This document shows, piece after piece, positions 14,201 through 64,000 of a stretch of DNA of 64,000 nt (its first letter is position 1; each line of letters opens with the position of its first letter). Origin of the DNA: Gemmatimonadota bacterium (GTDB lineage Bacteria > JBHIER01 > G020348925); the NCBI GenBank assembly GCA_020348925.1, contig CP070758.1, positions 1,770,030 through 1,834,029 on the forward strand. The letters are read 5' to 3'. The notes under the pieces were generated by a model that worked only from the letters and a program-made list of their open reading frames with translations, was not told where the DNA came from and did not search any database. The position numbers and the translations under genes were made by a program.

Positions 14201-14302
14201 ACTCCGGACCGTCCCAACGACAGAGAGCACTACAAAGAAACATATCAAAAGCCCCAAAACACCGGCTTTCACACGTGGTTTCCCCTGACACCCAAAACGC
14301 AT
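11246..14302 (-). CDS. Secreted multidomain M28-family aminopeptidase. It carries PPxAP/HYRI repeat modules, a 'putative Ig' domain and a C-terminal dockerin.
   Basis: The signal peptide starts at the ATG at 14302 (MRFGCQGKPRVKAGVLGLLICFFVVLSVVGTV); the ORF also extends upstream to 14512. M28 motifs: HYDS, NSWISAPGADDNASGTAAVVEAARVL, FSGEEQGLLGSEHYA. Modules homologous to the 45938 and 48881 paralogs: DTSPPSAPLLSSPTHPDEEDWY...GTYYFHCRAGDD...HYRIMIDTEPP. Putative Ig domain: LPPGKMGFEYEHTLSAAGGWPPYTW. Dockerin: GDIDGDGHVDIVDVVMNISIIL...DCDATGAIDILDTMCIVHII. Confidence 0.75.
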   Translation of the reverse strand: MRFGCQGKPRVKAGVLGLLICFFVVLSVVGTVRSEQESFLALIDVDSPEHEQYLTDFEITVLAVYEGRAFVKISEDQKDELYRVGLELNVLRNDQGTEDDYLLYVPEGNRMKIAEHAEVLDYRNGTALLRASPSEAERASRFGYGLTRISKDRLPRDRKKPQPPVPSTDPEMYAFLESILSNVSESEIRATIKRLQDFRTRYSCTDSCQAAAAYLSDRFTSFGLSVSYDFYTYGGELCSGQTWRNVVAVHPGVADTSQKYILCGHYDSKNVYGNSWISAPGADDNASGTAAVVEAARVLSMYDFDATILFICFSGEEQGLLGSEHYANWASDRDMDIRGVINLDMIAYVDDPPNDTWDINIYGDSDSYDLALFFADRVNQHTTAEPLVINTGFEQWGSDHYSFALLGYKAIFAIDAQLWGSPDWTPYYHSDGDTLGTLNLPYATEVVRASIAAVAALAGPIGVGDYQSPTMETIGEPQNQYYSRAPLFSNFGFDDDMALDDGWYQINSYTGEWSVLFTNVSGRNWDSDGWTLSEFSSLPNGSYIVYFKAVDDAGNVEGESGEWNWQFYKDTSPPSAPLLSSPTHPDEEDWYSAVDVLFQWEEPYDLSGVIGYSYVFDQSPETMPDETRDNTMREKGYYSLADGTYYFHCRAGDDVCLWGPAAHYRIMIDTEPPESPLDLTVDPPEWTNDSTFVLTWTNPDDLSGVEGAYYRLSSPPAFVDDGTFTTLYPLNLSAAAEGTHTVYVWLQDRADNVDHNKSASVTLAFDATAPSQGTISISGGADTTTSLVVTLSFLSAVDEMSGMGSGALMQFSNNGQTWSPAEPLDSTKHDWDLSQYGGSGGSGHKRVSVRYRDVAGNWSGPFSDSIVCDLPLAISTDTLPPGKMGFEYEHTLSAAGGWPPYTWLVYSGMLPCGLTLDATGCLSGVPDSVECRTFEVAVVDSVMNTERVGLSMQIEAPRKGDIDGDGHVDIVDVVMNISIILQDMIPSYGQLMAADCDATGAIDILDTMCIVHIIIGGG

Positions 14303-14634
14303 ATCGAACTGAAACAATTTAAAGAGTTGAAAACACATACGTCCTTTTTTCTCAATCATAGTAACCCTGAAAAATAGCCTTTTATACCGTCTTAACGCAA
14401 GGAAATTCTTGCGTTCCAGGAAAAAAGAATACCGTAGAGATCTCGTATTGAATCTTGGCACATGCATCACGTTGAAGCGAACCGGAAACTTCTCCATAAA
14501 AAAACCTTGCACATCTTTTCAAAAAAAATTAAGTTATGTAAAATCATGGGGAGGGGGTTGAAACCATCCCACACCCCCGATGAGTGGACTTTCGGTGGAA
14601 ATTTGGACGTTTACAGAGAAAGCAGGAGAGCCCA

Positions 14635-16836
14635 ATGAGAAGACCATTTATTGTGAGCGTAATATTTTTGTGCGTCGTTCTTGTCGCGAGCGTCAGTGCC
14701 CAGAGCCGCACGGATCGCGAGGTGACGCTTGGAGCCAAACTGGAAGCCATCCAGCGAGCTATTCAGGAGAAGGGGGCGAACTGGACCGCAGGTATGACGG
14801 AGATCTTTCAGCTTCCTGAAGAGGAGCGGATGTTGATGTACGGGTGCGCCGATTCCATCTCCCAGGACAAAATCCCGGAGGAGCAGCAGCTCATGCGGTA
14901 CTCGTGGCAGCCGGAGAAATTCGATTGGCGCTTGAAGGACGGCGCGGACTGGACGACACCGGTCAAGAATCAGGGTAGGTGCGGAAGCTGCGTCGCCTTC
15001 GCCACAATCGGAACCCTGGAAGGGCAGCTCAATATTTTCTATGACGACCCGTACCTCAATATGGATCTCTCCGAGCAGTACCTCTTCGCCTGCGGGGGCG
15101 GGACCTGCAATGAGGGTATGAACACCGACCTCGCCTTTCGCTACGTCCTCGGAAACGGCGTTCCGGACGAGGACTGCTTCCCCTATACATCAGGACTGGC
15201 GGGCATCGATAGACCGTGCGGTGACGCCTGCCCCGACTGGCAGGAACGGATCCTCAAGCCCTCCTGTTACGGGGCCGCCGCCGCTGATAAAGACATCAAA
15301 GCACCGGCTGACATCAAAGAGCAGATTCTCCAGGGTCCCGTCTGCGTCACTATGGCCGTCTTCGAGGATTTTGACTCGTACACAGGCGGGATTTACCAAC
15401 ACGTTTGGGGTCAATACGAGGCCGGCCACGCCATCGTTATGGTCGGTTGGGACGACACGACCGAGCCCCCCTGCTGGATTGTCAGAAACAGCTGGGGCTC
15501 CGGATGGGGAGAGAGGGGCTATTTTCGGATACGGATGGGGACGAACGAGGTCGGGATTGAGGACCAGGCCCTCTACGCACGATTCGGCGACGTTCCGGAG
15601 GGAAGGCTCTCGAGCGGTGGCCATCAGTTCGGAGATGTGGATGTGGGAGATTCCGAAAATTGGCTGTTGAACATCTACAATGAAGGAGGTGCTCCCCTAG
15701 AAATATACGAGTACCAATCGAACAAGCCCAATTACTTCATCAGCTCGCCTGCGTCCTTCCCTCAGACTGTCACCCCGGGTGGAACCCTTGGCGTCACTCT
15801 CGTCTTCACTCCTGACACCCTGGGGGAGGAATTCGGCCGCATACGATTCCCGAGCAACAGCTGTCACTTTCTCTCCGTAAAATTGCGCGGGACAGGTGTC
15901 ATCCACAACGTGAGGACAAGTCAGAAATCCATCGAAAAGACCATGGTGGAAGGGGACATCATGACCGTGCCCCTGACCATGACCTACATCGGAGATACCA
16001 CCCTCACCTACCAAGTTGAAATTCTCAGGGAATGGCTCTCTGTTCAACCCGACAGCGGCACACTTGAAACCGGGGGTAGTGTCGATTTCACCGTTACCCT
16101 CGATGCGTCGAACCTGGAACCCGGCGAGTACAGAACAAATATTCTGATCAAAACGGACGATCCCACCGACAAACTCGTCGTCGTCCATATTGTTCTCAGT
16201 ACGGAGGAGGCCGCCGGGGTCGCCCTCACCATCCCGCCCACTGCCATACCCATTGACCGGACAATTCAATTGGGTCTGTCCATCGACAACAAGAACCGCA
16301 TCGAAATGCCCATCAGGGATGTTGCTCTGCACATCGGTTACGATGCGACGTTTATGGAGCTCCGCGAAATTTCATCCACCCTCCGGACCGAGCACATGAC
16401 CGCCTTTCAGTGGTCCGAAGCCGAACCAGGTCAAATTACCCTCTCGATCTCCGACGGCAACGGCAACTGCATCGTTCCCGGAACGGAGCCCATAGCCCAA
16501 TTTTTCTTCGAAGCCCGCGACGGCATATCATGCGGCGACAGCGTGACGCTCACCATCACCGAGGCGACCCTCATAGACACCCTCGGCAGTGCCCTCGAGG
16601 TCCGGCTGAACAACGACCCCTGCCTCCTGCTCTGCAAGGGGGATGTGAACGCTAACGGTACGATAGAGATAGATGATGTTATTGAGGTTATCCGTTTGAT
16701 TCTTGAGAATGGTTGTTTCGAGGAATGGACTCCAGAGTGCTGGTCCTCTGACTACAACGACGACGGAAGCATCGACGCCATGGACCTTGTGTGCATGGTC
16801 AACGTTATCTTGGACAGGGAGGCTGGTTCTGATTGA
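14635..16836 (+). CDS. Secreted papain-like (C1A) cysteine peptidase with an Ig-like/CARDB-like region, a cohesin-like domain and a C-terminal dockerin.
   Basis: RBS aggagag sits 5 nt before the ATG at 14635. Signal peptide MRRPFIVSVIFLCVVLVASVSAQ. Catalytic triad context: QGRCGSCVAF (Cys), GHAIVMVGWD (His), NSWGSGWGERGYFRI (Asn). The ALHIGYDATFMELREI...ITLSISDGNGN segment resembles cohesin. Dockerin: GDVNANGTIEIDDVIEVIRLIL...YNDDGSIDAMDLVCMVNVIL. Confidence 0.8.
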   Translation: MRRPFIVSVIFLCVVLVASVSAQSRTDREVTLGAKLEAIQRAIQEKGANWTAGMTEIFQLPEEERMLMYGCADSISQDKIPEEQQLMRYSWQPEKFDWRLKDGADWTTPVKNQGRCGSCVAFATIGTLEGQLNIFYDDPYLNMDLSEQYLFACGGGTCNEGMNTDLAFRYVLGNGVPDEDCFPYTSGLAGIDRPCGDACPDWQERILKPSCYGAAAADKDIKAPADIKEQILQGPVCVTMAVFEDFDSYTGGIYQHVWGQYEAGHAIVMVGWDDTTEPPCWIVRNSWGSGWGERGYFRIRMGTNEVGIEDQALYARFGDVPEGRLSSGGHQFGDVDVGDSENWLLNIYNEGGAPLEIYEYQSNKPNYFISSPASFPQTVTPGGTLGVTLVFTPDTLGEEFGRIRFPSNSCHFLSVKLRGTGVIHNVRTSQKSIEKTMVEGDIMTVPLTMTYIGDTTLTYQVEILREWLSVQPDSGTLETGGSVDFTVTLDASNLEPGEYRTNILIKTDDPTDKLVVVHIVLSTEEAAGVALTIPPTAIPIDRTIQLGLSIDNKNRIEMPIRDVALHIGYDATFMELREISSTLRTEHMTAFQWSEAEPGQITLSISDGNGNCIVPGTEPIAQFFFEARDGISCGDSVTLTITEATLIDTLGSALEVRLNNDPCLLLCKGDVNANGTIEIDDVIEVIRLILENGCFEEWTPECWSSDYNDDGSIDAMDLVCMVNVILDREAGSD

Positions 16837-18700: not shown

Positions 18701-20761
18701 TTACTTCATGAATACCATACCCCGAGTGGCAGTGAAGCTGTTGGCGTTTATCCTAAAAAAGTACACTCCGCTGGGTAAGTCGGTAGCATCCCAACTGACC
18801 GCGTAGGTGCCTGGTGATTGGTGCGCATCGATCAGCGTGGTTACCTTCTCGCCAAGCAAATTATAAATTTCAAGGGTGACCATACAGTCGGTTGCTATAA
18901 CGTAGTTTATTTTTGTCTGAGCATTGAAGGGATTCGGATAGTTTTGTGATAAAGAGTATTCTCTCAGAGATGTGACTTCTGATTCATTTATTTCAATATT
19001 GGTGGGATTACCTTTTAACCAGTCAATAATACTGGCCAATAAATCTACCTTCATAATTTGAAAATCCGGACGAAGGTTTGTCAAATTTTCAAAGGGAAAA
19101 GCGAAGTAGACCAGTCTATATCCTGCAGCATATTTTAAGCCCGCTGTTTTTCCCGTCTGGGAGTATTCGAACACTGGAGTTGCTCCAAGAAGCGGTGTGA
19201 TTACATCCGGTGATCGCAAGTAGTCATTTTCATTGTTCTCCTGTATAAGTAAAAAACCTGAGATGTCACCGCTAATAGGATCCTCCGGCACGCTGGTAAT
19301 GAACCCGTCCTCCGAGTTATCCTGCATCCATTGAGCGCGGAGGTAATTGGTATAAAAATCCACGCCATTGCCTTTTTCGAATAAATCATACCCTATATCC
19401 TGTCCACAGAGAAAGAGCCGTCCACCATTATCCAAATAGGATATAAGGGAGGCTTGATCATCCTGAATCAGTGTGTTTTCTCTTGATTGCCCCGTAAACC
19501 ATATTACAATCTCGTGTTCATTCAACTTGTTTATGGGGGAACCCTGTCGTTCTACTTCCCAGGTTTGAAATGGGACCGCGTTTTCTGAAAGGCAGTAATG
19601 GTAGATATCTTGATACGTGTCACTACCATCATCGTCTACCAGCAACACCAATGGTTTGCCAATAGTGACGTAAAAGCTGTCGATTTTTGTGTATTCATCT
19701 TGTGTTGTGAAAGTGAGATAAAACTTGGCAAGATGAGTTTCAACGTCTGATTCAATGGAAATAATAAAAGGCGTTTGTGTATTTTCTGTGCTCTCATCGG
19801 GGGATAAATCACCATATTCTACAGTGTCAACTGAAACAACCACAGCGGGATCATCAGTGCTCAATGTTGCCATTAGCCCGAAGATATCGACCCCCGAGCT
19901 TATGATTGCCACCCTCAGTTCCACCGTTTCTCCTGGATCGCTTTGCCCGTTACCATCCCCATTACTCTGTCCGATTGAATCATCATCAACACAATAGTAG
20001 TCGATGTGTACCCTAGAAATGAGTTCGTAGTACTTTACGATAGCTTCAAACCAAACTGACGGACTTTGGATGTGCCAGCCGAAATTCCCAGATGGTCCTG
20101 GTCTACAGCCAGGGTAATAATAGTAGAAGCTATGAAAAGGGGTTGTACCCTCATCTTCAACAGCCCAGCCATGACCTGCCGTTATGTAAGTCGTGATTGA
20201 AATGAAAAATGGCTTGTCCCCAAGATCAATTTCCTTTTGCAGACCAGCTCTTGCAGGAATCTCGAACCATTTCCCAAGGTGATCTTCAGTTATCACAAAC
20301 GGGAATGGGCCCCAGATGTGACGTTCCCGATCGAATTGGTCCCATCCGATTGGCGAATGACCTATCACATTACCGGGGAGCCACTGACCGTCCTCGTCAT
20401 AGCCGATCCAACCGCAACTATCCGTGCTGTCGGTGGTAGTGATGTGGCCATCATAGTGGGAGCCGTCCCAAACATCAGCCAGGCAGGTTCCCTCGTAACT
20501 GTTAGACATGAGCCTCAGTGCGATGAGGGAACAGGGTCCGCTTGGCTGGAACCAAACCGCGATGGATTCTCCTGGACAATATGAGGGAAGTAATACAAGT
20601 GTGGTCGGCTCGTCCAATGTTCTCCAACTGAGCGTGTCATAGTCGCTTCGATTAAGAGTACCACCAGGTCGAAGTACCTCAATTTGACCAGCCACAACTG
20701 AAGTGAAGACGAAAAGTGCAAGAATGCAAAACATGAGGATGATATTCAATCTTTGACTCAT
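18701..20761 (-). CDS. Secreted protein with a T9SS type-A C-terminal sorting domain. The functional domain is unassigned; there is a gingipain/C25-like 'LLVDDDG...VIWFTG...GGRLFLCGQDIGYDLF' region.
   Basis: Signal peptide MSQRLNIILMFCILALFVFTSVVAGQ. C-terminal NYPNPFNAQTKINYV...YNLLGEKVTTLID...PSGVYFFRI is the Por-secretion-tail signature. The gene is AT-richer than its neighbours. Confidence 0.7.
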   Translation of the reverse strand: MSQRLNIILMFCILALFVFTSVVAGQIEVLRPGGTLNRSDYDTLSWRTLDEPTTLVLLPSYCPGESIAVWFQPSGPCSLIALRLMSNSYEGTCLADVWDGSHYDGHITTTDSTDSCGWIGYDEDGQWLPGNVIGHSPIGWDQFDRERHIWGPFPFVITEDHLGKWFEIPARAGLQKEIDLGDKPFFISITTYITAGHGWAVEDEGTTPFHSFYYYYPGCRPGPSGNFGWHIQSPSVWFEAIVKYYELISRVHIDYYCVDDDSIGQSNGDGNGQSDPGETVELRVAIISSGVDIFGLMATLSTDDPAVVVSVDTVEYGDLSPDESTENTQTPFIISIESDVETHLAKFYLTFTTQDEYTKIDSFYVTIGKPLVLLVDDDGSDTYQDIYHYCLSENAVPFQTWEVERQGSPINKLNEHEIVIWFTGQSRENTLIQDDQASLISYLDNGGRLFLCGQDIGYDLFEKGNGVDFYTNYLRAQWMQDNSEDGFITSVPEDPISGDISGFLLIQENNENDYLRSPDVITPLLGATPVFEYSQTGKTAGLKYAAGYRLVYFAFPFENLTNLRPDFQIMKVDLLASIIDWLKGNPTNIEINESEVTSLREYSLSQNYPNPFNAQTKINYVIATDCMVTLEIYNLLGEKVTTLIDAHQSPGTYAVSWDATDLPSGVYFFRINANSFTATRGMVFMK

Positions 20762-41995: not shown

Positions 41996-43801
41996 ATGGA
42001 TTGGAACACACAGAATATCCGTAATTTTTGCATCATCGCTCATATTGACCACGGCAAATCGACCCTGGCCGATCGGTTGTTGGAGTTCACAGGCACCGTC
42101 TCGGCTGCGGATATGATCAATCAGGTTCTGGATGACATGGATTTGGAGCGGGAGCGGGGCATTACGATCAAATCCCATCCCATTCGGATGGATTACACAT
42201 CGAAAGGCGGCGGCACGTATATCCTCAACCTTATCGACACCCCCGGGCACGTCGATTTTTCCTACGAAGTTTCAAGGAGCCTGGCGGCCTGCGAAGGAGC
42301 CTTATTGGTCGTCGATGCCGCCCAGGGTATTGAAGCACAGACGATCAGCAACCTCTTTCTGGCTCTTGAAAACAATTTGACCGTCATCCCCGTCATTAAT
42401 AAGATCGATCTGAAGAACGCCCAGATCGATGTTGTCACCCGACAGATTTCGGAACTCACAGGTGCTTCGGAGAAGGAGATCCTGTTGGTCAGTGCCAAAG
42501 AAGGTTCCGGCACGGAAGAAGTATTGGAGGCGATTGTAGACCGCATTGCACCTCCCTCTCTGCACCCCGACAATCCCAGTCGAGCCCTCATCTTCGACTC
42601 TCAGTTCGATCAATATCGCGGTGCCGTCCCCTACATTCGGGTTTTTGACGGGATCTTCAAACAAGGGATGCGGATACAACTGTGCTCCAGCGGTAAGGAA
42701 TTTGAGGTGGACGAGGTCGGCATCTTTCGGTTGAATCGCATCAAACGAACGAGCCTTTCAGCCGGCGAGGTCGGGTACCTTGTGGCCAACATTAAAAAGG
42801 TTTCAGACACAAAGGTCGGCGACACGATCGCCGCTGCTCATGGGCCAACGATCGCTCCTCTGCCGGGCTACAAGGAGGTCAAACCGATGGTCTTCAGCGG
42901 CCTCTATCCAACGAACAGCGATGATTATGAGGAACTGGGATACGCCCTGGAGCGTTTGAAACTCAACGATGCCTCATTGAGTTATGAACCGGAATCCTCC
43001 GCAGCGCTTGGATTCGGGTTTCGCTGTGGATTTCTCGGTCTGCTCCACATGGAAATCATTCAGGAGCGTCTGGACCGAGAGTACGGCCTGGACATCATCA
43101 CCACGGTGCCCAATGTCAAGTATCGGCTCCTGTTGACCACTGGGGAACGGATCTTCGTCGAAAATCCAGCCGCTATGCCGGAGGTACGCCTCATCGAGGC
43201 CATTGAGGAGCCCTATATCAAGGCTCATATTATTGCTCCGGCCGATTATGTCGGGACGGTTATGAAACTTATGAAGGAACGAAGGAGTCTCTTTAAGACG
43301 ATGGACTATCTCGATCGGACCAAGGTCGATCTCCACTACGAACTGCCCTTTTCCGAGATCGTCTTTGACTTTTACGATAGACTGAAGTCTGTGAGCCGCG
43401 GATACGCCTCTTTTGACTACGACTATATCGATTACAGACCATCGAGCCTGGTAAAATTGGAGATTTTACTCAACAACGTGCCGGTGGATGCACTCTCATC
43501 CATTGTCCACAAGGATCGAGCCTACGAGTGGGGGCGAGAACTCTGCCAGCGATTGCGCACCATCATCCCCAGGCAGCTCATTCAAGTGGTTATTCAGGCG
43601 GCCATCGGCAGCCGTATCATCGCCCGGGAATCGATCGCTCCGCTGAAAAAAAATGTGACGGCAAAATGCTACGGCGGCGACATCACCCGCAAGAGAAAAT
43701 TGCTCGAACGGCAGAAGGAAGGGAAAAAACGCATGAAACAGGTGGGAAAAGTCGAAATCCCCCAGGAAGCTTTTCTGGCTATCCTGAAAGCGGAAAGATG
43801 A
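41996..43801 (+). CDS. lepA: Elongation factor 4 (LepA).
   Basis: [22 protein letters not shown] (G1), [13 protein letters not shown], and the LepA-specific C-terminal domain ...[22 protein letters not shown]. Confidence 0.95.
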
Positions 43802-43857
43802 AGGGATACCACGTCCCCTGTTCTCGCTCAAATGACTTTGGAGAGGAGGAACTCAAA

Positions 43858-44685
43858 GTGACGCGCAAAAAACAGAAAAAGAGAAAATCAATCATTCGTG
43901 AATATATGGAATCCATCGTCGTGGCCGTCTTTTTGGTCATGTTCATCATCCGCCCGTTTGTTGTTCAGGCATTTCGTATTCCCTCGGGTTCAATGGAGGA
44001 TGCGCTCTTGGTGGGGGATTTTCTCTTGGTCAACAAGTTCATCTACGGAGCGAAGAGTATTGACAGAATTCCCCTCACAAAGATCGATATTCCATATTTC
44101 ACCCTGCCCGCTTTGACCGATCCGAAACCGGGAGACATCATTGTCTTCCGGGCACCGCACGAACCTGATAAGGACTTCATTAAACGGTGTATCGCCGTTC
44201 CAGGCCAGACGCTTGAGATCAAAGACAAAATTGTGTATATCGACGGCAAAAAAATGGAAAATCCACCGAAGGCGAAGCACATCACGAATTATTCCATCCC
44301 CAAGGCGGCCGGTCTTCGTGACAACTTCGGCCCAGCCCGGGTACCGACCGAAGGGGATACCCTCCGTTTCGCCAACTTAAACGAATACGAATATGAGTTA
44401 TTGAGGATGTATCTCGAATACAAGGGAGAGGCCCTGGCAACAAAGGGAAACGGATTTACGTTGAATGGCCGGAGTGCAAACTTTTACATTATGGACGAGG
44501 ATTGCTATTTTATGATGGGCGACAACAGAGACAACAGTCGTGACAGTCGCTTCTGGGGTTGGCTTCCCAGAAAAGACATTCGAGGAAAGGCCCTCATCCT
44601 CTACTGGTCCTGGAACAGCGAGCCACCTCTCTACGACATCTTTCACAAGGTTCGATGGGGTCGCATCGGATGGCTCATCAAGTGA
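43858..44685 (+). CDS. lepB: Signal peptidase I (LepB).
   Basis: A GTG start preceded by the strong RBS ggagaggagg. Basic N-terminus plus TM (RKKQKKRKSIIREYMESIVVAVFLVMFII). Catalytic Ser box IPSGSMEDAL. GDNRDNSRDSRFWGWLP (box E). The six-frame ORF extends upstream to 43528, but that part overlaps the lepA 3' end. Confidence 0.8.
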   Translation: MTRKKQKKRKSIIREYMESIVVAVFLVMFIIRPFVVQAFRIPSGSMEDALLVGDFLLVNKFIYGAKSIDRIPLTKIDIPYFTLPALTDPKPGDIIVFRAPHEPDKDFIKRCIAVPGQTLEIKDKIVYIDGKKMENPPKAKHITNYSIPKAAGLRDNFGPARVPTEGDTLRFANLNEYEYELLRMYLEYKGEALATKGNGFTLNGRSANFYIMDEDCYFMMGDNRDNSRDSRFWGWLPRKDIRGKALILYWSWNSEPPLYDIFHKVRWGRIGWLIK

Positions 44686-45937: not shown

Positions 45938-48691
45938 ATGTTTTTCAGACTCATTCTTCTTTTTGTAAGTACTGCTATGTTTTGGCCAGTTCTGGTGCAC
46001 GGCCAGGAGATTCTCAAGCAATTGCAGGCGCCGGGCTCTGAACCGAGGGGCTTGACCTGGGACGGCCACTCCCTGTGGTGTGCTGATGCCTCGGCACAAA
46101 GGGTCTATCAAATCGATCCTGACGACGGTCAGATCATCTCCTCATTCGACTACTCTATGGACTTCCAGTACGGAGGGCTGGGCTGGAGCCCCGAGGGATA
46201 TCTTTGGATCACAGATTACCGGGAGAGTCAAAGCTGGTTCGACAAGGTCCACCCGACATCGGGCAGCGTGATCTCCTCGTTCCACTGCCCAGGCGGGTGA
46301 ACCGCTCGAGGTGCAGGGGTGGCCAGTCTGGCCATCGACACTCTCTGGTACTCCGACAGGAGGCAAAAATATATCGGTAAAACGACCACATCAGGGTATT
46401 TGGTCGAAAACATTGAAACGTTCGACTCATTGATTCGCGACATAGCCTGGGACGGGACCCATATCTGGGCCATATCACTCGAGGGAACGATCAAGAAATT
46501 CAGCACCTCAGGCGATCTGATCGAGACATACGCCGGGCTCCTCAGCGGCGGATGGGGGCTGACCTATGATGGTGCCTATGTGTGGGCCTCCGATCCGGGA
46601 ACGAACAAAATTTACAAACTTCTCTTCCCGGGCTTGGGCGACAAAACACCACCTTCCGCTCCCGCGCTCACATCCGACACGCACCCATCCCAGGACGACT
46701 GGTACAGGCAGGACAGTCCCACCCTCAACTGGACCCCCCCTGCAGATCCCTCGGGCATAAGCGGATACAGTTACGCAGTGAACCACGAATCCACATTTTC
46801 TCCGGATACAACCAGTGAGGGTTGGCTGACAACCGCCACGTACAGCGACCTGACTGACGGCACATGGTATTTCCACTGCCGGGCCAGAGACGGCGTAGGC
46901 AATTGGAGCACGGCGAATCATTACCGTATCAGAATCGACACACAAGCCCCTGCCCCCCCCATCAACCCCACCGTTTTTCCCAGCGGATGGACCAACGACA
47001 GTATTTTCCAAGTCCACTGGACTAATCCTCCCGACAGTTCGGCCATAGCCGGTGTCTATTACAAGATCGGACCACCTCCTGAACACGGGGAAGATGGGAC
47101 GTTTTCTTCGACGATACCTCTATTTCTCGCAGCCCCGGCTGAAGGCGAAAACGCTGTGCATCTCTGGCTCGAAGACGGCGCAGGGAACAAGGACGAGGCC
47201 TCTCGCGCCGATGCCGTTCTCCCGTATGATGCCACCGGACCTCAGGAGGGGACTATTTTAATAAACGCCGGCGCTGAAGCTACAGTATCAACCACGGTCA
47301 CTTTAGCCAATCTAAACGCTGTTGATGCCTTGAGCGGCATGGAACCAGGGGCACAGATGCGGTTCAGCAACGACGGTACGACCTGGTCTCCGGCCGAAGA
47401 CTATACGAGCCTCAAGACCAACTGGGATCTCTCCTCGTATGGGGGGACGAGTCAACCGGGACCCAAGACGGTCTCCGTCATATACCGCGATGCCGCCGGC
47501 AACTGGTCAGATCCCTTCAGCGACGACATTCTTCTCTCTGAACCCCTGGCTATTGTCACCGATTCCCTGCCCGGAGGTGCTGTGGGCTTTGCCTACGAGG
47601 AGACTTTGGTTGCAACAGGAGGGGTACCGCCTTATAGCTGGAGCATATCCTCCGGAGCGCTTCCCAACAATCTGACGCTCACTCCCGACGGCACAATCAC
47701 CGGTGTGCCTGATGAAGCCGGTCCTTCGAATTTTATCGTCGAGGCGATCGACCCCTATTCGAGTTCTCAGTTCCGAGCTTACACAATCACCATATTCATC
47801 GGGGCAACCAAAGGGGACATAAACGGCGACTCCGAGGTCGATCTTCGCGATATACTCCCTGTTGTCGGATATATTCTGGGACGAAGCGGGTTGACGCAGT
47901 CGCAGCTCTGGTCGGCTGATGCCTTTCCTGACGGATCAATCGACCTGTCCGACCTGGTGGCTTTAGCCCATCTCATCGTCGGGCAATCGTCCGGAGCCGC
48001 GAGGGTCTCATATTCTGGGGGAGGTCCATCCGTTCTCCGGGCCTCACACACATATGATGCTCCATCATCAACCGTGACTCTGTTCCTCGACAACGGAGTA
48101 CCTGTCGGTGGCCTTCAACTCGAGGTACGATTACCCCGGGACGCAACGCTTCGCAAGCCCCCTCAAGTCACCGACCGATGCGGATCTTTCACCGTGGACT
48201 ATACCAAGAATCACGACGATCTCACCGTCCTGACGTACACCCTCAACGGAGACGCGATCTTACCCGGGTCAGGACCCCTCTTGATGCTGTCTTTATCCTG
48301 CCCGGAAGATACGAAGGAACAGAACGCCATAATAGAAAAAGCATTTCTGGTCGGTGTCAGGGGCGAACCGCTCCCTCTCGACATTCGGACAGAATCTGTA
48401 GTGACTGCCCCCGTGGCACACGGTTTGGCACGCAACTATCCCAATCCTTTCAATCCTGAGACGTCCATCAGTTTTTCACTTCCTGCTGAGAACACCGTTT
48501 CCGTAATCATCTATGATGCTTTGGGCCGCAGGGTGAGAACAATCGCCGAGGAGACATTGAAGGCCGGAGTTCACACCATGCTTTGGGACGGACGTGATGA
48601 AGGCGGCCACGCATCGCCGAGCGGAGTCTATTATTGCAGAATTGACGGGGGAGATGTCGTTCACACACTAAAGTTGGCCCTCATCAGATAA
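45938..48691 (+). CDS. Secreted beta-propeller / PPxAP-module / putative-Ig / dockerin / cohesin-like protein ending in a T9SS C-terminal sorting domain. It is interrupted by one in-frame TGA at 46298-46300, presumed recoded (selenocysteine?).
   Basis: Signal peptide MFFRLILLFVSTAMFWPVLVHGQ. The ORFs 45863..46300 and 46319..48691 share a frame and are separated only by a TGA after ...FHCPGG. The second ORF has no signal peptide yet ends in a T9SS CTD (NYPNPFNPETSISFSLP...SGVYYCRI). Propeller-blade repeats: GLTWDGHSLWCAD...VYQID, IAWDGTHIWAIS...IKKF, GLTYDGAYVWASD...IYKL. Dockerin: GDINGDSEVDLRDILPVVGYIL...DGSIDLSDLVALAHLIVG. Confidence 0.6.
46298..46334 (+). promoter_or_regulatory. In-frame UGA with a downstream hairpin (tggccaGTCtggcca, 46320-46334). 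Candidate bacterial SECIS-like recoding element.
   Basis: The TGA at 46298-46300 is followed 19 nt later by a 6-bp perfect stem with a GUC loop. The E. coli fdhF SECIS apical loop is (A)GGUC(U). A homologous position in the paralog 48881..51319 has the same arrangement. Confidence 0.5.
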
Positions 48692-48880: not shown

Positions 48881-51319
48881 ATGAAACAATGGCAACGGTT
48901 GCTTTCGGTTTTTCTTGTATCACTCCTACCGGTCGCCGGATTCGCTCAACGCATTGTCAAAGAGTTTGATACTCCGGGTCCTGAGCCGAGGGGCTTGACC
49001 TGGGACGGAACATATCTCTGGTGCGCTGATGCCGAAGAGGATTCCATATTCAAGATCGATCCTGAGTCAGGTCAAGTTATTCACTCTTTCTATTTCAGCA
49101 TGACTTTTGAATTTTCCAGAGGAGGAGGAATAGCGTGGAGCGGCGACGGTGCCCTGTGGGCCACCCGTAGTACCTATTTTTATAAACTTGACGCGAACAC
49201 CGGTCAGAGCATAACAAACTTTCACTGTCCTGGGGGCTGAAGCGTCCGACCGGCGGGCGTGACCCGCCAAGGGAGTTACCTCTGGTATTACGATCAAACA
49301 TCCAATTACGTTGGGAAAACGACCACCGGAGGGAGTCTTCTGGCCAATTTCATCCCGAGCGACAACACTCTCCGAGACCTTTGTTGGGACGGCACCCATC
49401 TCTGGACCATGAACATCTCAGGCGAGATAAAGAAATATACCACATCCGGAGTTCTCGAAGAAACCGTTACCGATCTTCTCCCAAGAGGATGGGGCATAAC
49501 GTTCGACGGCTCACATCTGTGGGCCTCGGATCCTCAAACCGATAAGATCTATCAAATAGCACTCTCCGATGACTCAGATCCCCCCGGAGCGCCGCTGATC
49601 CAAAGCGCAACGCATTCCTTCGATTCAGCCTGGTACAGCGATCCCGATCCGGTTTTCACCCTCACGCAACCTGAAGATCCTTCGGGTATCGCCGGATACA
49701 GCTATCTCCTGGATGAACACGCTGAGACCGTCCCTGACAATTCTGTCGACGGAACAGGAACGACGGTCGCCTATGTATCCATCCAGGATGGAAAATGGTA
49801 TTTCCACTGTCGGGCTCAGGATGGGGCCGGGAATTGGGGCGAGACAAATCACTACAGAATTCAGATCGATACGACACCTCCGGCAGGTGGCACCATCCTC
49901 ATCGAGGATGACGCCGACACGACGAAATCCTTAGTGGTAACCTTGGGCAATCTCCAAGCCGAAGATACTCTCTCGGGAATGGGTTCCGGTGCAGCCATGA
50001 AATTCAGCAACTACGGATCCGTCTGGTCAGACGAAGAGCCTTTCAGGGACACCCGCACGGGCTGGGATCTCTCACAATATGGCGGAAATGATTCCTCGGG
50101 TCTGAAAAGGGTCTTCGTCTCTTTCCGAGATGTGGCCGGGAACTGGTCCCAGCCCCTCTTCGATGAGATCATCTACAGCGCACCTCTTGTCGTTGAAACA
50201 GAATCGCTGAGTGCAGGTACCCTGGGTTTCGCTTATGCCGAAACGCTTTTCGCCTCAGGCGGTTGGCCACCCTATGAGTGGGAGATTGGTGGGGGTGCAT
50301 TACCTCCTGACCTGGAACTCGATACTACTGGCATCATATCAGGGAAACCGGATTCGGCCGGAACATTCACTTTTACGGTGACTGTAACTGACGCCAACAT
50401 GTCCGCAACAATGAAGGATTATACAATCACCATTCACATTGAGGCCGAAAAGGGAGACGTGAACGGCGACGCGGATGTCAATATTCTTGATATCATCGCC
50501 GTTGTTCGATATATCCTCGGATTGGAGGAGTTTACCCCTCTTCAAATATGGGCGGCTGACGTCATAACCGACGGCGCCATCGATGTAACGGACATCCTGG
50601 GCATCGTCAACCTCATCCTCGAATCGCCTGGTGGAGGACGGTTGATGCTCTCACAGGGGCAGGCCCTCATCGGCCTCGAAGAAGACACACGCTTTCCCAA
50701 TGCCCACAATACCACAGCTGTTACCTTGAAGAGTCAAATACCTGTGGCTGGAATCCAGCTGAACATAAGGCTGGCTTCAGGTTCAAAGCTAACACGCCCG
50801 CCTCAATTGACACAGTGGAGTCAAACTTTTCAATGCAGCTATAAAATCAACGAGAATAATGTCTTACTTCTGTTGTACAGCCTGTCACACGAGATCATTT
50901 CACTGCCCTATCCTGTTCCAATTGTGAATCTCCGTATCCCTGAGGATGCCTACCCCGTATACATTGAAAGTGTCATCGTCGCTGACAAAAACGGCCAGCC
51001 AATCACCGTCGGCAACGATCCTGAAAAGCTGAGCTCTGCCCGGCAGGGGACGGACGTTCAAAGCCATCCGAATCCCTTTAATACGGAAACGTTCCTGTCG
51101 TTCACCCTTGAAAAGAGAGAATACGTCACACTGTCTGTCTACAATGTCCTGGGTCAAATGGTCAGAACACTCGTGAGCGGGGAGTGTGATCCGGGCGAAC
51201 ATGTGGTGAGCTGGGACGGCACGGACTGGACCGGCAATACACTTCCCAGCGGAGTCTATTTCAGCCGAATAGAAGTGGGAAATATCGGAACCGTTAGGGA
51301 GATGCTCCTTTTGAAGTGA
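48881..51319 (+). CDS. Paralog of 45938..48691 with the same domain order (beta-propeller, PPxAP module, putative Ig, dockerin, cohesin-like, T9SS CTD). It is interrupted by an in-frame TGA at 49238-49240, presumed recoded.
   Basis: RBS gagaggtgg upstream. Signal peptide MKQWQRLLSVFLVSLLPVAGFAQ. The ORFs 48758..49240 and 49259..51319 share a frame and are split only by a TGA after ...FHCPGG. Dockerin: GDVNGDADVNILDIIAVVRYIL...DGAIDVTDILGIVNLIL. T9SS CTD: HPNPFNTETFLSFTL...YNVLGQMVRTLV...SGVYFSRI. Confidence 0.6.
49238..49268 (+). promoter_or_regulatory. In-frame UGA with a downstream hairpin (ggcgggCGUGAcccgcc, 49252-49268). Candidate SECIS-like recoding element.
   Basis: The TGA at 49238-40 is followed 11 nt later by a 6-bp GC stem with a CGUGA loop (a GU dinucleotide in the apical loop). 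It is positionally equivalent to the hairpin at 46320-46334, although the sequences differ. Confidence 0.5.
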
Positions 51320-54290: not shown

Positions 54291-54866
54291 TCACTCCACT
54301 TCAGTATGTTGTTCCAATTTCTGTCTCAAAGCTCGTCTGGCATAATACAAGCGGGACATGACTGTCCCCTGGCTGCACGAGAGAACCTCGGCAATCTCAC
54401 GATACGTGAGGTTTTGAAAATGACGCAGAATGATGATCTCCCGATCGCGGGGCTTGAGCGAAGAGATGGCCTTCCACACCCTGTCCTTTACGGCATCCCT
54501 CTCCACCATAAGGTTCGGATCAAAAGAGAGGGAGAGCTCCTCCCTCTCAACGCGTTCGCTCAAATCCTCCAAAGCGATCCGGGGATTGGCCCTTTGCTCC
54601 CGTAACCAGTTAAAACACAGATTTTTCAGAATCTGATAGAACCACGGGAAGAAACGTCGATTCGGATCGAATTTCCTGCGATGGCGATAGACCCTCACAA
54701 AAGCTTCCTGTGAAAGATCCAGGGCGACATCATGCTGGCCGACCAATCCTAAAGCGATGAAATACGCCTTGCGCATGTATTTCTTGACGAGAAACTCGAA
54801 GGCTTTCGTTTCCCCCTTTCGCCAGCGTACTACGAAATGTGTTTCATCATCCATCGCTCGGTTCAT
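54291..54866 (-). CDS. ECF-subfamily RNA polymerase sigma factor (sigma-24-like).
   Basis: Region 2 (FEFLVKKYMRKAYFIALGLVGQHDVALDLSQEAFVRVY) and region 4 (LTYREIAEVLSCSQGTVMSRLYYARRAL) motifs. Confidence 0.85.
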   Translation of the reverse strand: MNRAMDDETHFVVRWRKGETKAFEFLVKKYMRKAYFIALGLVGQHDVALDLSQEAFVRVYRHRRKFDPNRRFFPWFYQILKNLCFNWLREQRANPRIALEDLSERVEREELSLSFDPNLMVERDAVKDRVWKAISSLKPRDREIIILRHFQNLTYREIAEVLSCSQGTVMSRLYYARRALRQKLEQHTEVE

Positions 54867-63222: not shown

Positions 63223-64000
63223 TTACGTGGCATAAATGTGCAAGAATTGTCTTCTCGATCTGTGTTTTAATTTTTCAATGGCTTTCACTTTAATTTGTCG
63301 TGCTCTTTCCCTCGTGACTCCGAATTTTTCACCGATCTCGCTCAAGGTGAGAGATTTCCTCCCGCTCAGTCCGAAATAGAGCCGTATCACCTCTGCCTCC
63401 CGGCAGGTCAACGTAGCCAAGGCTTTCTCAATATCAGCCGGTAAAAATCCAAGGTACATCCCTTCATCCGGATACGGCTGTCTCTCATCTCCAATGATAT
63501 CTAAAAGTACATAATCATCATCACTTTTTATGGGAGAATTCAACGAGAGTGGAGTTGATGCGCCTGTCAATGTTTTAACGACATCTTTGTCAGGAACACC
63601 AAGCTCCGATGCGATTTCGAATGTATTGGGCGACCTTCCGTGTTCTTGGAAATACGCACCCTGAATTTTGCCTATTTTTCGCAGCATATTGTGCCTGTTC
63701 ATAGGAATCTTCACAATTCGCGTCTGCGAAGCGAGAGCCGTAAGTATGGCCTGTCGTATCCACCACACAGCATATGAGATGAATTTGAATCCCTTTGTCC
63801 CATCAAATCGTTTTACCGCCTCCATCAATCCCATATTTCCCTCGTTGATAAGGTCCTCGAGGGGCAACCCGTAACCTGCATAATTTTTCGCTACGGTGAT
63901 AACATATCGAAGGTTGGCCTCGATCAACTTTTGAGCCGCTCTCTTATCCCCCCGTCGAATCCTTCTGGACAATTTTCTCTCCTCCTCGGCCGTAATAAGG
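63223..64000 (-). CDS. Sigma-70 family RNA polymerase sigma factor (RpoD/RpoS-like group). The 5' end is truncated by the window edge.
   Basis: Region 2 (RRIRRGDKRAAQKLIEANLRYVITVAKNYAGYGLPLEDLINEGNMGLMEAVKRFD...FISYAVWWIRQAI), region 3 and region 4 (LTCREAEVIRLYFGL...LSEIGEKFGVTRERARQIKVKAIEKL). The reading frame continues upstream of 63972 to the window end (…ITAEEERKLSRRIRRGD). Confidence 0.85.
   Translation of the reverse strand, partial: LITAEEERKLSRRIRRGDKRAAQKLIEANLRYVITVAKNYAGYGLPLEDLINEGNMGLMEAVKRFDGTKGFKFISYAVWWIRQAILTALASQTRIVKIPMNRHNMLRKIGKIQGAYFQEHGRSPNTFEIASELGVPDKDVVKTLTGASTPLSLNSPIKSDDDYVLLDIIGDERQPYPDEGMYLGFLPADIEKALATLTCREAEVIRLYFGLSGRKSLTLSEIGEKFGVTRERARQIKVKAIEKLKHRSRRQFLHIYAT

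What the first reader, a model, noticed from the sequence alone, without database searches (positions are those of the whole stretch)
46250..46340. Conserved in-frame UGA plus downstream hairpin in two tandem paralogs: candidate selenocysteine/recoding site in T9SS-secreted proteins
Both paralogs (45938..48691 and 48881..51319) are continuous reading frames except for one TGA. In both, the TGA falls at the identical aligned position, immediately after ...(S/N)FHCPGG. Amino-acid similarity continues across the stop in the same frame (TARGAGVASLAIDTLWYSD versus SVRPAGVTRQGSYLWYYD).

The downstream parts lack any signal peptide, yet they end in T9SS sorting domains. Those domains require Sec export, which argues the two halves are made as one polypeptide.

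Each TGA is followed within 11-19 nt by a different but equally stable 6-bp GC hairpin with a G-U-containing apical loop: tggccaGUCtggcca at 46320-46334 and ggcgggCGUGAcccgcc at 49252-49268. This is the architecture of bacterial SECIS elements.

Other genes in the window, such as lepA and the M24 peptidase, terminate normally at TGA, so a global UGA-sense code is unlikely.

A Cys four residues upstream (C-P-G-G-U) could form a selenylsulfide. Extracellular, T9SS-sorted selenoproteins carrying dockerin/cohesin modules would be unusual.
Basis: partly seen in the sequence, partly recalled or inferred. Interest (0 to 1): 0.85.

Follow-up and report, generated by a model that had tools for sequence, protein, structure and literature searches.

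The report
New secreted beta-propeller selenoprotein family (candidate)
Two neighbouring genes for secreted cell-surface proteins each contain one conserved in-frame UGA followed by a small RNA hairpin, which most likely directs insertion of selenocysteine. This appears to define a selenoprotein family not yet listed in current catalogues.

Summary
Both tandem genes (45938-48691 and 48881-51319) are open except for one TGA, at 46298 and 49238, directly after FHCPGG.

I found 21 distinct relatives in independent assemblies (37-95% identical). All 21 carry TGA at this column, never TAA, TAG or a Cys codon.

The reading frame, the amino-acid conservation and a confident AlphaFold model (pLDDT 89.7) all run through the TGA as one five-bladed beta-propeller. 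No conserved restart codon follows.

A 6-8 bp hairpin with a G-U/G-G apical loop sits 17-25 nt after the UGA. It meets the published bacterial SECIS criteria. It shows frozen synonymous sites and compensatory base changes, and it is rebuilt in a register shifted by 7 nt in one subfamily with the same CGUGA loop. None of 12 terminating TGAs in the window has such a hairpin.

TGA is an ordinary stop in 11 of 31 long genes, so the code is standard.

The family is absent from NCBIfam and from a 2026 catalogue of 119 prokaryotic selenoprotein families, and no Cys form was found.

Not shown: selA, selB, selC and selD in the source genome could not be examined.

Verdict: very probably a new, obligately Sec-containing family of T9SS-sorted, dockerin-bearing surface proteins. 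Its biochemical function is unknown; a rhodanese fusion in one subfamily hints at sulfur or selenium transfer.

The parts
45938..48691 (+). Paralog A, read through as one gene of 917 codons. The deposited annotation splits it; the downstream 790 aa is UCE20050.1.
45938..46003 (+). Paralog A predicted signal peptide (aa 1-22, ...VHG|Q). The first mature residue is Gln, invariant in the 10-sequence alignment A1.
   Evidence: sequence inspection; alignment A1, (no predictor run)
46004..46630 (+). Paralog A five-bladed beta-propeller domain (aa 23-231). It spans the TGA.
46286..46288 (+). Invariant Cys codon (C117), four residues before the UGA: motif C-P-G-G-U.
   Evidence: Cys 21/21
46298..46300 (+). 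In-frame TGA of paralog A, the candidate selenocysteine codon (residue 121).
46318..46336 (+). SECIS-like hairpin A: 8 bp (GGUGGCCA/UGGCCAUC), loop GUC at 46326-46328, 25 nt between UGA and loop, -11.2 kcal/mol.
46667..46942 (+). Paralog A Big_13 Ig-like domain (aa 244-335).
47582..47794 (+). Paralog A He_PIG Ig domain (aa 549-619).
47810..47971 (+). Paralog A type I dockerin (aa 625-678).
48437..48676 (+). Paralog A T9SS type A C-terminal sorting domain (aa 834-913; TIGR04183 34.2 bits against a cutoff of 23).
48881..51319 (+). Paralog B, read through as one gene of 812 codons. The downstream 686 aa is UCE20052.1. It ends at an ordinary TGA (51317-51319) with no hairpin.
48881..48946 (+). Paralog B predicted signal peptide (aa 1-22, ...GFA|Q).
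   Evidence: sequence inspection
48947..49564 (+). Paralog B beta-propeller domain, spanning the TGA.
49226..49228 (+). Invariant Cys codon of paralog B (C-P-G-G-U).
49238..49240 (+). In-frame TGA of paralog B, the candidate selenocysteine codon (residue 120).
49252..49268 (+). SECIS-like hairpin B: 6 bp GGCGGG/CCCGCC, loop CGUGA at 49258-49262, 17 nt between UGA and loop, -11.1 kcal/mol.
50201..50434 (+). Paralog B He_PIG Ig domain (aa 441-518).
50450..50617 (+). Paralog B type I dockerin (aa 524-579).
51068..51295 (+). Paralog B C-terminal FlgD_ig/Por_Secre_tail-type sorting domain (aa 730-805). Por_Secre_tail scores 23.5 bits, below Pfam's cutoff of 27; FlgD_ig scores 42 bits.

Best explanation
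**Claim.** Each of the two tandem genes encodes one secreted selenoprotein.

**Proposed mechanism.** The UGA at 46298 (paralog A) or 49238 (paralog B) is decoded as selenocysteine. The mRNA hairpin 17-25 nt downstream acts as a bacterial SECIS element: it recruits SelB carrying Sec-tRNA(Sec) to the ribosome.

**The product, from N- to C-terminus.**
- A signal peptide.
- A five-bladed beta-propeller, with Sec in a family-specific, three-residue-longer loop (C-P-G-G-U) just before the innermost strand of blade 3.
- Ig-like domains.
- A dockerin.
- A T9SS C-terminal sorting domain.

The selenol would therefore be displayed outside the cell. It probably works as a redox or sulfur/selenium-transfer centre together with the invariant Cys four residues upstream.

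**Shown here.**
- The TGA is conserved.
- The fold runs continuously across it.
- The hairpin is under RNA-level selection.
- The genetic code of the window is standard.

**Inferred.**
- Sec is the residue inserted.
- SelB binds the hairpin.
- The protein reaches the cell surface.
- The chemistry of the site.
For: **(1) The TGA is conserved.**
- TGA occupies the same HMM column in 21 of 21 distinct family sites. They come from NCBI, JGI, ENA and Logan assemblies.
- Pairwise identity is 37-95% (median 51%), giving 13 clusters at 70% identity.
- Never TAA, TAG or a sense codon.

**(2) TGA is an ordinary stop elsewhere in the window.**
- It ends 11 of 31 long genes, including paralog B itself.
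- None of 12 terminating TGAs has a SECIS-like hairpin.

**(3) One polypeptide is made.**
- Pfam and family-HMM matches span the TGA.
- AlphaFold2 with X at the site gives one propeller: pLDDT 89.7, pTM 0.88, with strand 89-94, loop 95-102 and strand 103-110.
- The first in-frame start after the TGA varies from +15 to +84 nt. It is absent within 90 nt in L097, and there is no conserved Shine-Dalgarno sequence.

**(4) The hairpin fits the published bSECIS rules**.
- Both window copies pass at about -11 kcal/mol.
- 17 of 21 relatives have at least 6 bp, a loop matching ^.?G[GU], 17-25 nt spacing and dG of -7.3 or lower, against 1.9% of all TGAs in the window.

**(5) Selection acts on the RNA.**
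- Synonymous sites are frozen at codons +7 to +13 (CTG 14/15, ACC 14/14, GCC 9/9, AGC 12/14). Four-fold sites elsewhere are near random.
- Compensatory changes occur in the stem. Pair 25-35 is AU in 6 sequences and GC in 6. In the second subfamily 3 of 6 pairs change on both sides, 96.7% of cells are paired, and the covariation score beats all 500 shuffles.
- In a loop-anchored alignment 97 of 102 cells are canonical.
- The same CGUGA loop is encoded by R-E codons in one subfamily and by G-V-T codons, 7 nt upstream, in the other.

**(6) The motif looks like a reactive site.** An invariant Cys at -4 and an invariant Gly at +6 flank the site.
Against: - No selA, selB, selD or tRNA-Sec is present in the window or in any fetched locus. 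The rest of the source genome could not be searched, so the decoding machinery is unverified.
- No Cys-containing homolog was found. The classical Sec/Cys pairing test is therefore not available.
- Rfam SECIS models give only an insignificant partial hit to SECIS_3 (E = 8.3) for paralog A and nothing for paralog B.
- Four of 21 relatives have an imperfect hairpin: an A-C mismatch, or a loop without G in its first two positions.
- No other selenoprotein gene was seen in the roughly 64 kb window or in the family-bearing loci.
Confidence: 0.85

Rival explanations
1. **SECIS-independent read-through.** The UGA is read through, but not as selenocysteine. A near-cognate or suppressor tRNA inserts Trp, Cys, Gly or Arg. 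The hairpin acts only as a pause or read-through stimulator.
For: The Sec machinery was not observed. No Cys form exists to pin down the chemistry. Rfam SECIS models do not match.
Against: - If a standard amino acid were wanted, a sense codon would appear in at least some of 21 diverged relatives. None does.
- The loop keeps the G-U/G-G signature and the 16-37 nt spacing specific to SelB-type elements.
- The site sits in a C-x-x-x-U motif typical of reactive residues.
- From my own knowledge, no hairpin-driven programmed UGA read-through other than Sec is established in bacteria.
Confidence: 0.07
2. **Two real genes.** The TGA is a true stop. A roughly 100-residue secreted two-blade fragment and a separately initiated downstream protein are made, as in the deposited annotation.
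For: Gene callers and the GenBank record split the genes. Paralogs A and B each have a GTG 21 nt after the TGA.
Against: - Stop codons of real gene ends interconvert, yet this one is TGA in 21 of 21 relatives.
- The stop cuts blade 3 of a single propeller, which folds confidently as one domain.
- The residues between the TGA and any start codon are conserved in frame.
- There is no conserved start or Shine-Dalgarno sequence, and none at all within 90 nt in L097.
- The downstream part has a T9SS sorting domain but no signal peptide of its own.
Confidence: 0.05
3. **Artefact or decay.** The TGA is a sequencing or assembly error, or the genes are decaying pseudogenes.
For: None beyond the presence of a stop codon.
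Against: The same codon occurs in two paralogs and in independent assemblies from four sources. Both halves are under strong purifying selection.
Confidence: 0.01

Closest known systems
Bacterial selenoprotein genes with an intragenic SECIS (prototype: E. coli fdhF; consensus bSECIS model as summarised in PMC13188914)
   Same: - An in-frame UGA followed inside the coding region by a stem-loop.
- An apical loop of 3-5 nt with G then U/G in its first positions.
- 17-25 nt between UGA and loop, within the 16-37 nt range.
- In paralog B, 11 nt lie between the UGA and the base of the stem.
- Energy below -7.5 kcal/mol.
   Different: - The conserved element is only a 6-8 bp hairpin.
- It is not recognised by Rfam's SECIS_1-5 models.
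- Its position has shifted by 7 nt between subfamilies while the loop is kept.
- SelB binding is inferred, not shown.
Predicted extracytoplasmic selenoproteins in the 2026 catalogue, e.g. TonB-dependent receptor FCYXU-type (NF049945), GSU2204/MtrB-PioB family outer-membrane protein, UshA-like and DsbA/DsbG-like proteins
   Same: Exported proteins with Sec close to a Cys. This shows that Sec outside the cytoplasm has precedent.
   Different: - A different fold: a five-bladed propeller.
- A different motif: C-x-x-x-U, not CxxU, CxU or UxxC.
- T9SS sorting plus a dockerin.
- No NCBIfam selenoprotein model matches.
Rhodanese-domain selenoproteins (forms 1-5 in PMC13188914)
   Same: One subfamily of the present family (L011, L093, L095, L096, L100) carries a rhodanese domain. 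This links it to sulfur/selenium-transfer chemistry.
   Different: Here Sec lies in the propeller. The rhodanese active-site loop keeps Cys (VYC[RKG]SGYRS). The two window paralogs have no rhodanese domain.
Five-bladed beta-propellers of the plant/bacterial glutaminyl cyclase type (PDB 3mbr, 2faw, 3nol); Vgb lyase and NHL propellers
   Same: The best global fold matches are the glutaminyl cyclases: TM 0.76-0.78 on the query and 0.66-0.69 on the target. There are weak Pfam Vgb_lyase/DUF6923 hits.
   Different: There is no sequence-level membership: the Pfam scores are below the cutoffs. The C-P-G-G-U loop is a three-residue insertion absent from the nearest non-Sec propellers.
T9SS type A cargo with dockerin modules in FCB-group bacteria
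   Same: N-terminal signal peptide, C-terminal TIGR04183 domain and a type I dockerin. Neighbouring genes encode other dockerin or T9SS enzymes. A cohesin/dockerin T9SS scaffold-like protein lies next to the L009 copy.
   Different: As far as the literature I searched shows, none of the described cargo contains a recoded UGA.

Membership tests
Bacterial selenoprotein gene (Sec-UGA plus bSECIS) | In-frame UGA conserved at the same position among homologs | tested here: met
   21 of 21 distinct family sites have TGA at HMM column 117.
Bacterial selenoprotein gene (Sec-UGA plus bSECIS) | Coding potential and homology continue in the same frame after the UGA, as one protein | tested here: met
   - HMM and Pfam matches span the site.
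- The AlphaFold2 model is one continuous propeller, pLDDT 89.7.
- There is no conserved restart codon.
Bacterial selenoprotein gene (Sec-UGA plus bSECIS) | bSECIS: 4-16 bp upper stem, 3-9 nt apical loop with G in its first two positions, 16-37 nt from the UGA, energy <= -7.5 kcal/mol | tested here: met
   - Paralog A: 8 bp, loop GUC, 25 nt, -11.2 kcal/mol.
- Paralog B: 6 bp, loop CGUGA, 17 nt, -11.1 kcal/mol.
- 17 of 21 relatives pass at -7.3 or lower, against a background of 1.9%.
- This was my own implementation, not bSECISearch.
Bacterial selenoprotein gene (Sec-UGA plus bSECIS) | The RNA structure is under selection (covariation, synonymous constraint) | tested here: met
   Caveat: the stems also encode conserved amino acids, and the sequences are related to one another.
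Bacterial selenoprotein gene (Sec-UGA plus bSECIS) | Homologs with Cys aligned to the Sec position | tested here: not met
   - The FHCPGG-Cys patterns scanned in GTDB genomes and JGI metagenomes recovered no Cys-form family member (with the re-scans).
- None was found in the protein searches.
- The next-best propellers score 91 bits or less and lack the loop.
- Absence is unusual but does not exclude Sec.
Bacterial selenoprotein gene (Sec-UGA plus bSECIS) | selA, selB, selC (tRNA-Sec) and selD in the same genome | not testable with these tools
   - They are absent from the 64 kb window and from all loci held.
- The 5.04 Mb MAG could not be reached.
- The SelA search listed only enterobacteria.
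Bacterial selenoprotein gene (Sec-UGA plus bSECIS) | Selenium demonstrated in the protein | not testable with these tools
   Needs 75Se labelling or mass spectrometry.
Any of the 119 catalogued prokaryotic selenoprotein families / NCBIfam selenoprotein models | Sequence match to a family model, or a listed fold and motif | tested here: not met
   - The NCBIfam release 20 scan of read-through paralog A returns only T9SS/FlgD-type hits.
- The catalogue lists no propeller, T9SS or CPGGU entry.
- The words 'propeller' and 'T9SS' do not occur in the review or the BSepDB paper, and 'propeller' does not occur in the deep-Sep paper.
T9SS type A cargo | C-terminal TIGR04183/Por_Secre_tail domain plus an N-terminal Sec signal peptide | tested here: met
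   - Paralog A: TIGR04183 34.2 bits, cutoff 23.
- Paralog B: FlgD_ig 42 bits, and Por_Secre_tail 23.5 bits, below its cutoff.
- Signal peptides were judged by inspection only.
Type I (plant/bacterial) glutaminyl cyclase | Pfam Glu_cyclase_2 membership and the catalytic site | tested here: not met
   No Pfam hit for the window proteins. Only the fold is similar.

The most novel reading that the evidence does not exclude
**The reading.** This is an obligately selenocysteine-dependent surface enzyme family in uncultured FCB-group bacteria (Gemmatimonadota, Zixibacteria and relatives); no Cys form was found in the collections searched. Its parts would be:
- a five-bladed propeller carrying a Cys-x3-Sec centre;
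- export through the T9SS;
- docking through a dockerin onto a cohesin scaffold;
- in some lineages, fusion to a catalytically intact rhodanese.

**What it would do.** It would carry out extracellular sulfur or selenium (polysulfide, thiosulfate, selenide) transfer or redox chemistry that Cys cannot support.

**A consequence.** Selenium supply would gate production of the full-length surface protein.
Probability: 0.3. Interest if true: 0.8.

Novelty: new member of a known kind. Interest (0 to 1): 0.62.

Why it matters
- It would add a structurally new family to the bacterial selenoproteome: a beta-propeller that is T9SS-sorted and carries a dockerin. It comes from poorly studied phyla.
- It shows that these genes are mis-annotated as two ORFs in public records.
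- A family with no Cys counterpart at all is a good place to ask what selenium does that sulfur cannot, here outside the cell.
- The hairpin has moved by 7 nt while keeping the same loop. That is a clean natural experiment on what a minimal bacterial SECIS needs.
- The rhodanese fusions give a testable biochemical lead.

Tried and rejected
**Searches for the Sec machinery.**
- I searched for SelA with the E. coli sequence, hoping to spot the MAG's own copy by its contig length (5038017). Only the 120 best hits were listed, and all were enterobacterial.
- phmmer with E. coli SelA, SelB and SelD against all 171 fetched loci and the window found only LepA-type GTPases.
- ARAGORN found no tRNA in the window or in the family-bearing loci.
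- A look-up of the window's LepA returned only an 8.4 kb Logan contig, so I could not walk along the 5 Mb chromosome.

**Other selenoproteins nearby.** I scanned the window and loci L001, L009, L010 and L011 for TGA-interrupted frames with Cys/Sec motifs. Nothing credible turned up.

**Rfam.** The gathering-threshold search gave nothing. The E-value searches gave only an insignificant SECIS_3 fragment.

**Structure prediction.**
- The single-sequence run with X was poor, pLDDT 55.8.
- It succeeded only with an alignment of window sequences and trimmed database fragments.

**Search for Cys forms.** The exhaustive representative search with the N-terminal profile was swamped by multi-blade repeat proteins. 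It was uninformative about Cys forms beyond one more truncated member ending in FHCYGG.

**Alignment.** A MAFFT alignment of loop-anchored hairpins re-aligned them by homology. This exposed the 7-nt register shift but could not be used for pair counting.

**Literature.** Searches for Zixibacteria or Gemmatimonadota with selenocysteine, and for secreted or propeller selenoproteins, gave nothing relevant.

**Explanations considered and rejected.**
- An alternative genetic code (UGA as Gly or Trp): TGA terminates 11 of 31 long genes here.
- A pseudogene or assembly error: the codon is conserved across independent assemblies.
- A transcription terminator or attenuator: the hairpin lies inside conserved coding sequence and has no U-tract.
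Full report
**1.

Reading the frame from ATG 45938 gives 917 codons, with one stop: TGA at 46298-46300. Reading from ATG 48881 gives 812 codons, with one stop: TGA at 49238-49240. Both follow F-H-C-P-G-G.

- UGGCCA-GUC-UGGCCA at 46320-46334. It extends to 8 bp at 46318-46336.
- GGCGGG-CGUGA-CCCGCC at 49252-49268.

Pfam finds a weak Vgb-lyase/DUF6923-type beta-propeller match that spans the TGA in both proteins. Downstream it finds Big_13 and He_PIG Ig domains, a type I dockerin and a FlgD_ig/Por_Secre_tail C-terminal domain. NCBIfam TIGR04183 (T9SS type A sorting domain) passes its cutoff for paralog A. No cohesin was detected in these two proteins.

**2. The genetic code of the organism is standard.**

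Of 31 long ORFs in the window, 11 end in TGA, 11 in TAA and 9 in TAG. Those ending in TGA include lepA, HflX, the Sir2 deacetylase and the M24 peptidase, and paralog B itself.

None of 12 terminating TGAs is followed by a SECIS-like hairpin.

The window belongs to a GenBank MAG labelled 'Gemmatimonadota bacterium', a single contig of 5,038,017 bp. The deposited annotation splits both genes at the TGA (UCE20050.1, UCE20052.1).

**3. The TGA is conserved in a whole family.**

A protein search with the read-through N-terminal domain returned two kinds of fragment. Some were 133-146 aa and all ended in ...FHCPGG. Others began just after that point.

I fetched their contigs and scanned GTDB genomes and JGI metagenomes. 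I then re-scored all six-frame translations with a family HMM. This gave 21 distinct sites scoring 237-378 bits, and every one has TGA at the same column.

The motif is [H/S/T]-C-P-G-[G/W]-U. One member has C-V-Y-G-U, and one further database fragment ends in C-Y-G-G. The Cys at -4 and a Gly at +6 are invariant.

The members are 37-95% identical (median 51%) and form 13 clusters at 70% identity. Named carriers are Zixibacteria SM1_73 (LJVD01000085) and an unclassified MAG (JBHIER010000084). Tandem pairs also occur in L001 and L009.

The next-best propellers score 91 bits or less and lack the loop altogether.

No Cys form exists in what I searched:
- the FHCPGG-Cys patterns scanned by the two collection scans recovered no Cys-form family member (re-scored);
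- the protein searches found no full-length Cys or annotated U form.

**4. One polypeptide is made.**

The TGA falls inside blade 3 of the propeller. Amino-acid conservation continues in frame immediately after it (G at +6 in 21/21, W at +15 in 19/21).

The first in-frame start codon after the TGA lies anywhere from +15 to +84 nt. It has no conserved Shine-Dalgarno sequence, and none exists within 90 nt in L097.

AlphaFold2 was run on paralog A residues 23-232 with X at the site, using an alignment of window sequences and database fragments. It gives one continuous propeller: mean pLDDT 89.7, pTM 0.88. The motif loop (model residues 95-102) lies between the last strand of blade 2 and the first strand of blade 3.

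The best global fold matches are the five-bladed glutaminyl cyclases 3mbr, 2faw and 3nol, with TM 0.76-0.78.

Compared with the nearest non-Sec propellers (FNAPGS---GPWGL), the family loop is three residues longer (FHCPGGUTARGAGV). In propellers this loop class forms the face around the central channel, where active sites usually lie. That point is from my own knowledge and is an inference.

**5. The hairpin behaves like a bacterial SECIS.**

The published consensus asks for four things (PMC13188914):
- a 4-16 bp upper stem;
- a 3-9 nt apical loop with G, usually G-G or G-U, in its first two positions;
- 16-37 nt between the UGA and the loop;
- an energy of -7.5 kcal/mol or lower.

Paralog A has 8 bp, loop GUC, 25 nt and -11.2 kcal/mol. 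Paralog B has 6 bp, loop CGUGA, 17 nt and -11.1 kcal/mol.

Among the 21 sites, 17 have a perfect stem of at least 6 bp meeting the loop and spacing rules at -7.3 kcal/mol or lower. Only 1.9% of the 2470 TGAs in the window do so, and only 0.4% reach -11. The four exceptions have one A-C mismatch or a CCGGGAA loop.

Three lines of evidence show selection on the RNA rather than only on the protein.
- **Frozen synonymous sites.** At codons +7 to +13 the codons are CTG 14/15, ACC 14/14, CGT 13/18, GAG 13/15, GCC 9/9 and AGC 12/14. Four-fold sites elsewhere carry 1.5-2.0 bits of entropy.
- **Compensatory stem changes, some of them non-synonymous.** One example is CUGGCC/GGCCAG against CUGACC/GGUCAG. 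Pair 25-35 is AU in 6 sequences and GC in 6. In the second subfamily 3 of 6 pairs change on both sides, 96.7% of cells are paired, and no shuffle out of 500 reaches the observed covariation score.
- **A shifted register with the same loop.** The CGUGA loop is built from Arg-Glu codons (CGU GAG; loop starts at nt 28) in one subfamily. In the other, which includes paralog B, it is built from Gly-Val-Thr codons (GGC GUG ACC; loop starts at nt 21). The hairpin has moved 7 nt while keeping its loop.

In a loop-anchored comparison, stem pairs 1-6 are canonical in 97 of 102 cells and pairs 7-10 are not conserved. The alignments are small and the sequences are related, so these counts are supportive rather than formal proof.

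**6. What is not shown.**
- No selA, selB, selD or tRNA-Sec lies in the window or in any locus I hold.
- I could not reach the rest of the MAG.
- Rfam's SECIS models give no significant match.
- No other selenoprotein gene was seen nearby.

The identity of the inserted residue therefore rests on comparative evidence.

**7. What the protein may do.**

All family members with complete ends have a signal peptide, and the first mature residue is an invariant Gln. Those with complete C-termini end in a T9SS-type sorting domain or a dockerin.

The window and L011 are rich in other dockerin- or T9SS-bearing enzymes. A cohesin/dockerin T9SS protein lies next to the L009 copy. This suggests display on a cell-surface scaffold.

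In the Zixibacteria-type subfamily the propeller is fused to a rhodanese domain (Pfam E = 2e-16). Its active-site loop is intact: VYC[R/K/G]SGYRS.

In L001 and L009 the two copies sit among IscR-IscS-NifU-MnmA genes.

These hints point to sulfur or selenium transfer, or thiol/selenol redox chemistry at a Cys-x3-Sec centre. That remains inference, and the window paralogs themselves have no rhodanese domain.

**8. Comparison with what is known.**

The recoding mechanism is the ordinary bacterial one. The protein family is not:
- NCBIfam release 20 has no matching selenoprotein model;
- the 2026 catalogue of 119 prokaryotic selenoprotein families lists no propeller, T9SS or CPGGU entry;
- the review and the BSepDB paper mention neither propellers nor T9SS, and the deep-Sep paper does not mention propellers.

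Exported selenoproteins do exist, for example the FCYXU-type TonB receptor and UshA-like, DsbA-like and MtrB/PioB-like proteins. An extracytoplasmic location alone is therefore not unprecedented.

**9. Verdict.**

I put Sec recoding at about 0.85.

It is a probable new selenoprotein family, mis-annotated as split genes in public records. It is notable for having no Cys counterpart and for its surface-display architecture.

It is a new member of a known kind of system rather than a new mechanism. Interest: 0.62.

Noticed in passing
window 5812-6825 (+), 11246-14512 (-), 14584-16836 (+), 18701-20761 (-); L011 1571-13414: The region is rich in secreted enzymes that carry type I dockerins and/or T9SS sorting domains. 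In the window these are a metallo-beta-lactamase fold, an M28 peptidase, a papain C1 and an unknown protein. In L011 they are an S8 subtilase, a C25 gingipain-like peptidase, an SBBP propeller and a purple acid phosphatase. This suggests a cellulosome-like surface assembly in these FCB-group bacteria.
   Followed up: partly
L009 1-2613 (-): A protein of at least 1055 aa with weak cohesin hits, a dockerin and a T9SS C-terminal domain lies a few genes upstream of the tandem Sec genes. It is a possible T9SS-anchored scaffoldin for the dockerin-bearing proteins.
   Followed up: no
window 46004-46006 and 48947-48949; alignment A1: The first residue after the predicted signal-peptide cleavage site is Gln in all 10 members of alignment A1. 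This resembles Bacteroidota T9SS cargo, whose N-terminal Gln is cyclised to pyroglutamate (my own knowledge; not tested).
   Followed up: no
L011 10436-11749; L093, L095, L096, L100 downstream parts: The Zixibacteria-type members fuse the Sec propeller to a rhodanese domain with an intact Cys active-site loop. A beta-helix-like region and a dockerin follow, in place of the Ig domains and T9SS tail seen in the window paralogs.
   Followed up: partly
L001 1003-5802; L009 3044-10594: In these two related contigs the two Sec genes are interleaved with iron-sulfur and sulfur-relay genes: Rrf2/IscR, IscS-like aminotransferase, NadA, NifU_N, MnmA and NifU. This synteny is not present in the window.
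   Followed up: no
family hairpins, e.g. window 49252-49268 versus L001 5141-5161: The SECIS-like hairpin lies 7 nt further upstream in one subfamily than in the other. Even so, it keeps the identical CGUGA loop, encoded by different amino-acid codons.
   Followed up: yes
window 426-2861 (-) and 9643-11169 (-): There are two SpoIIE/PP2C-type phosphatase genes, one with a HAMP domain. A sigma-70 gene (63223-63972) and an ECF sigma factor gene (54291-54866) lie elsewhere in the window.
   Followed up: no
window 41996-44685; L090: lepA is followed directly by a signal peptidase I (S26) gene that overlaps its stop codon by 4 nt, and then by a Sir2 deacetylase just upstream of paralog A.
   Followed up: no
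L010 876-1268: An IS66-family transposase fragment lies immediately upstream of the Sec gene in MAG JBHIER010000084.
   Followed up: no
L009 14932-17296 (-): An MttB-family methyltransferase sits next to an S-methyltransferase. I did not check it for an in-frame TAG (pyrrolysine).
   Followed up: no
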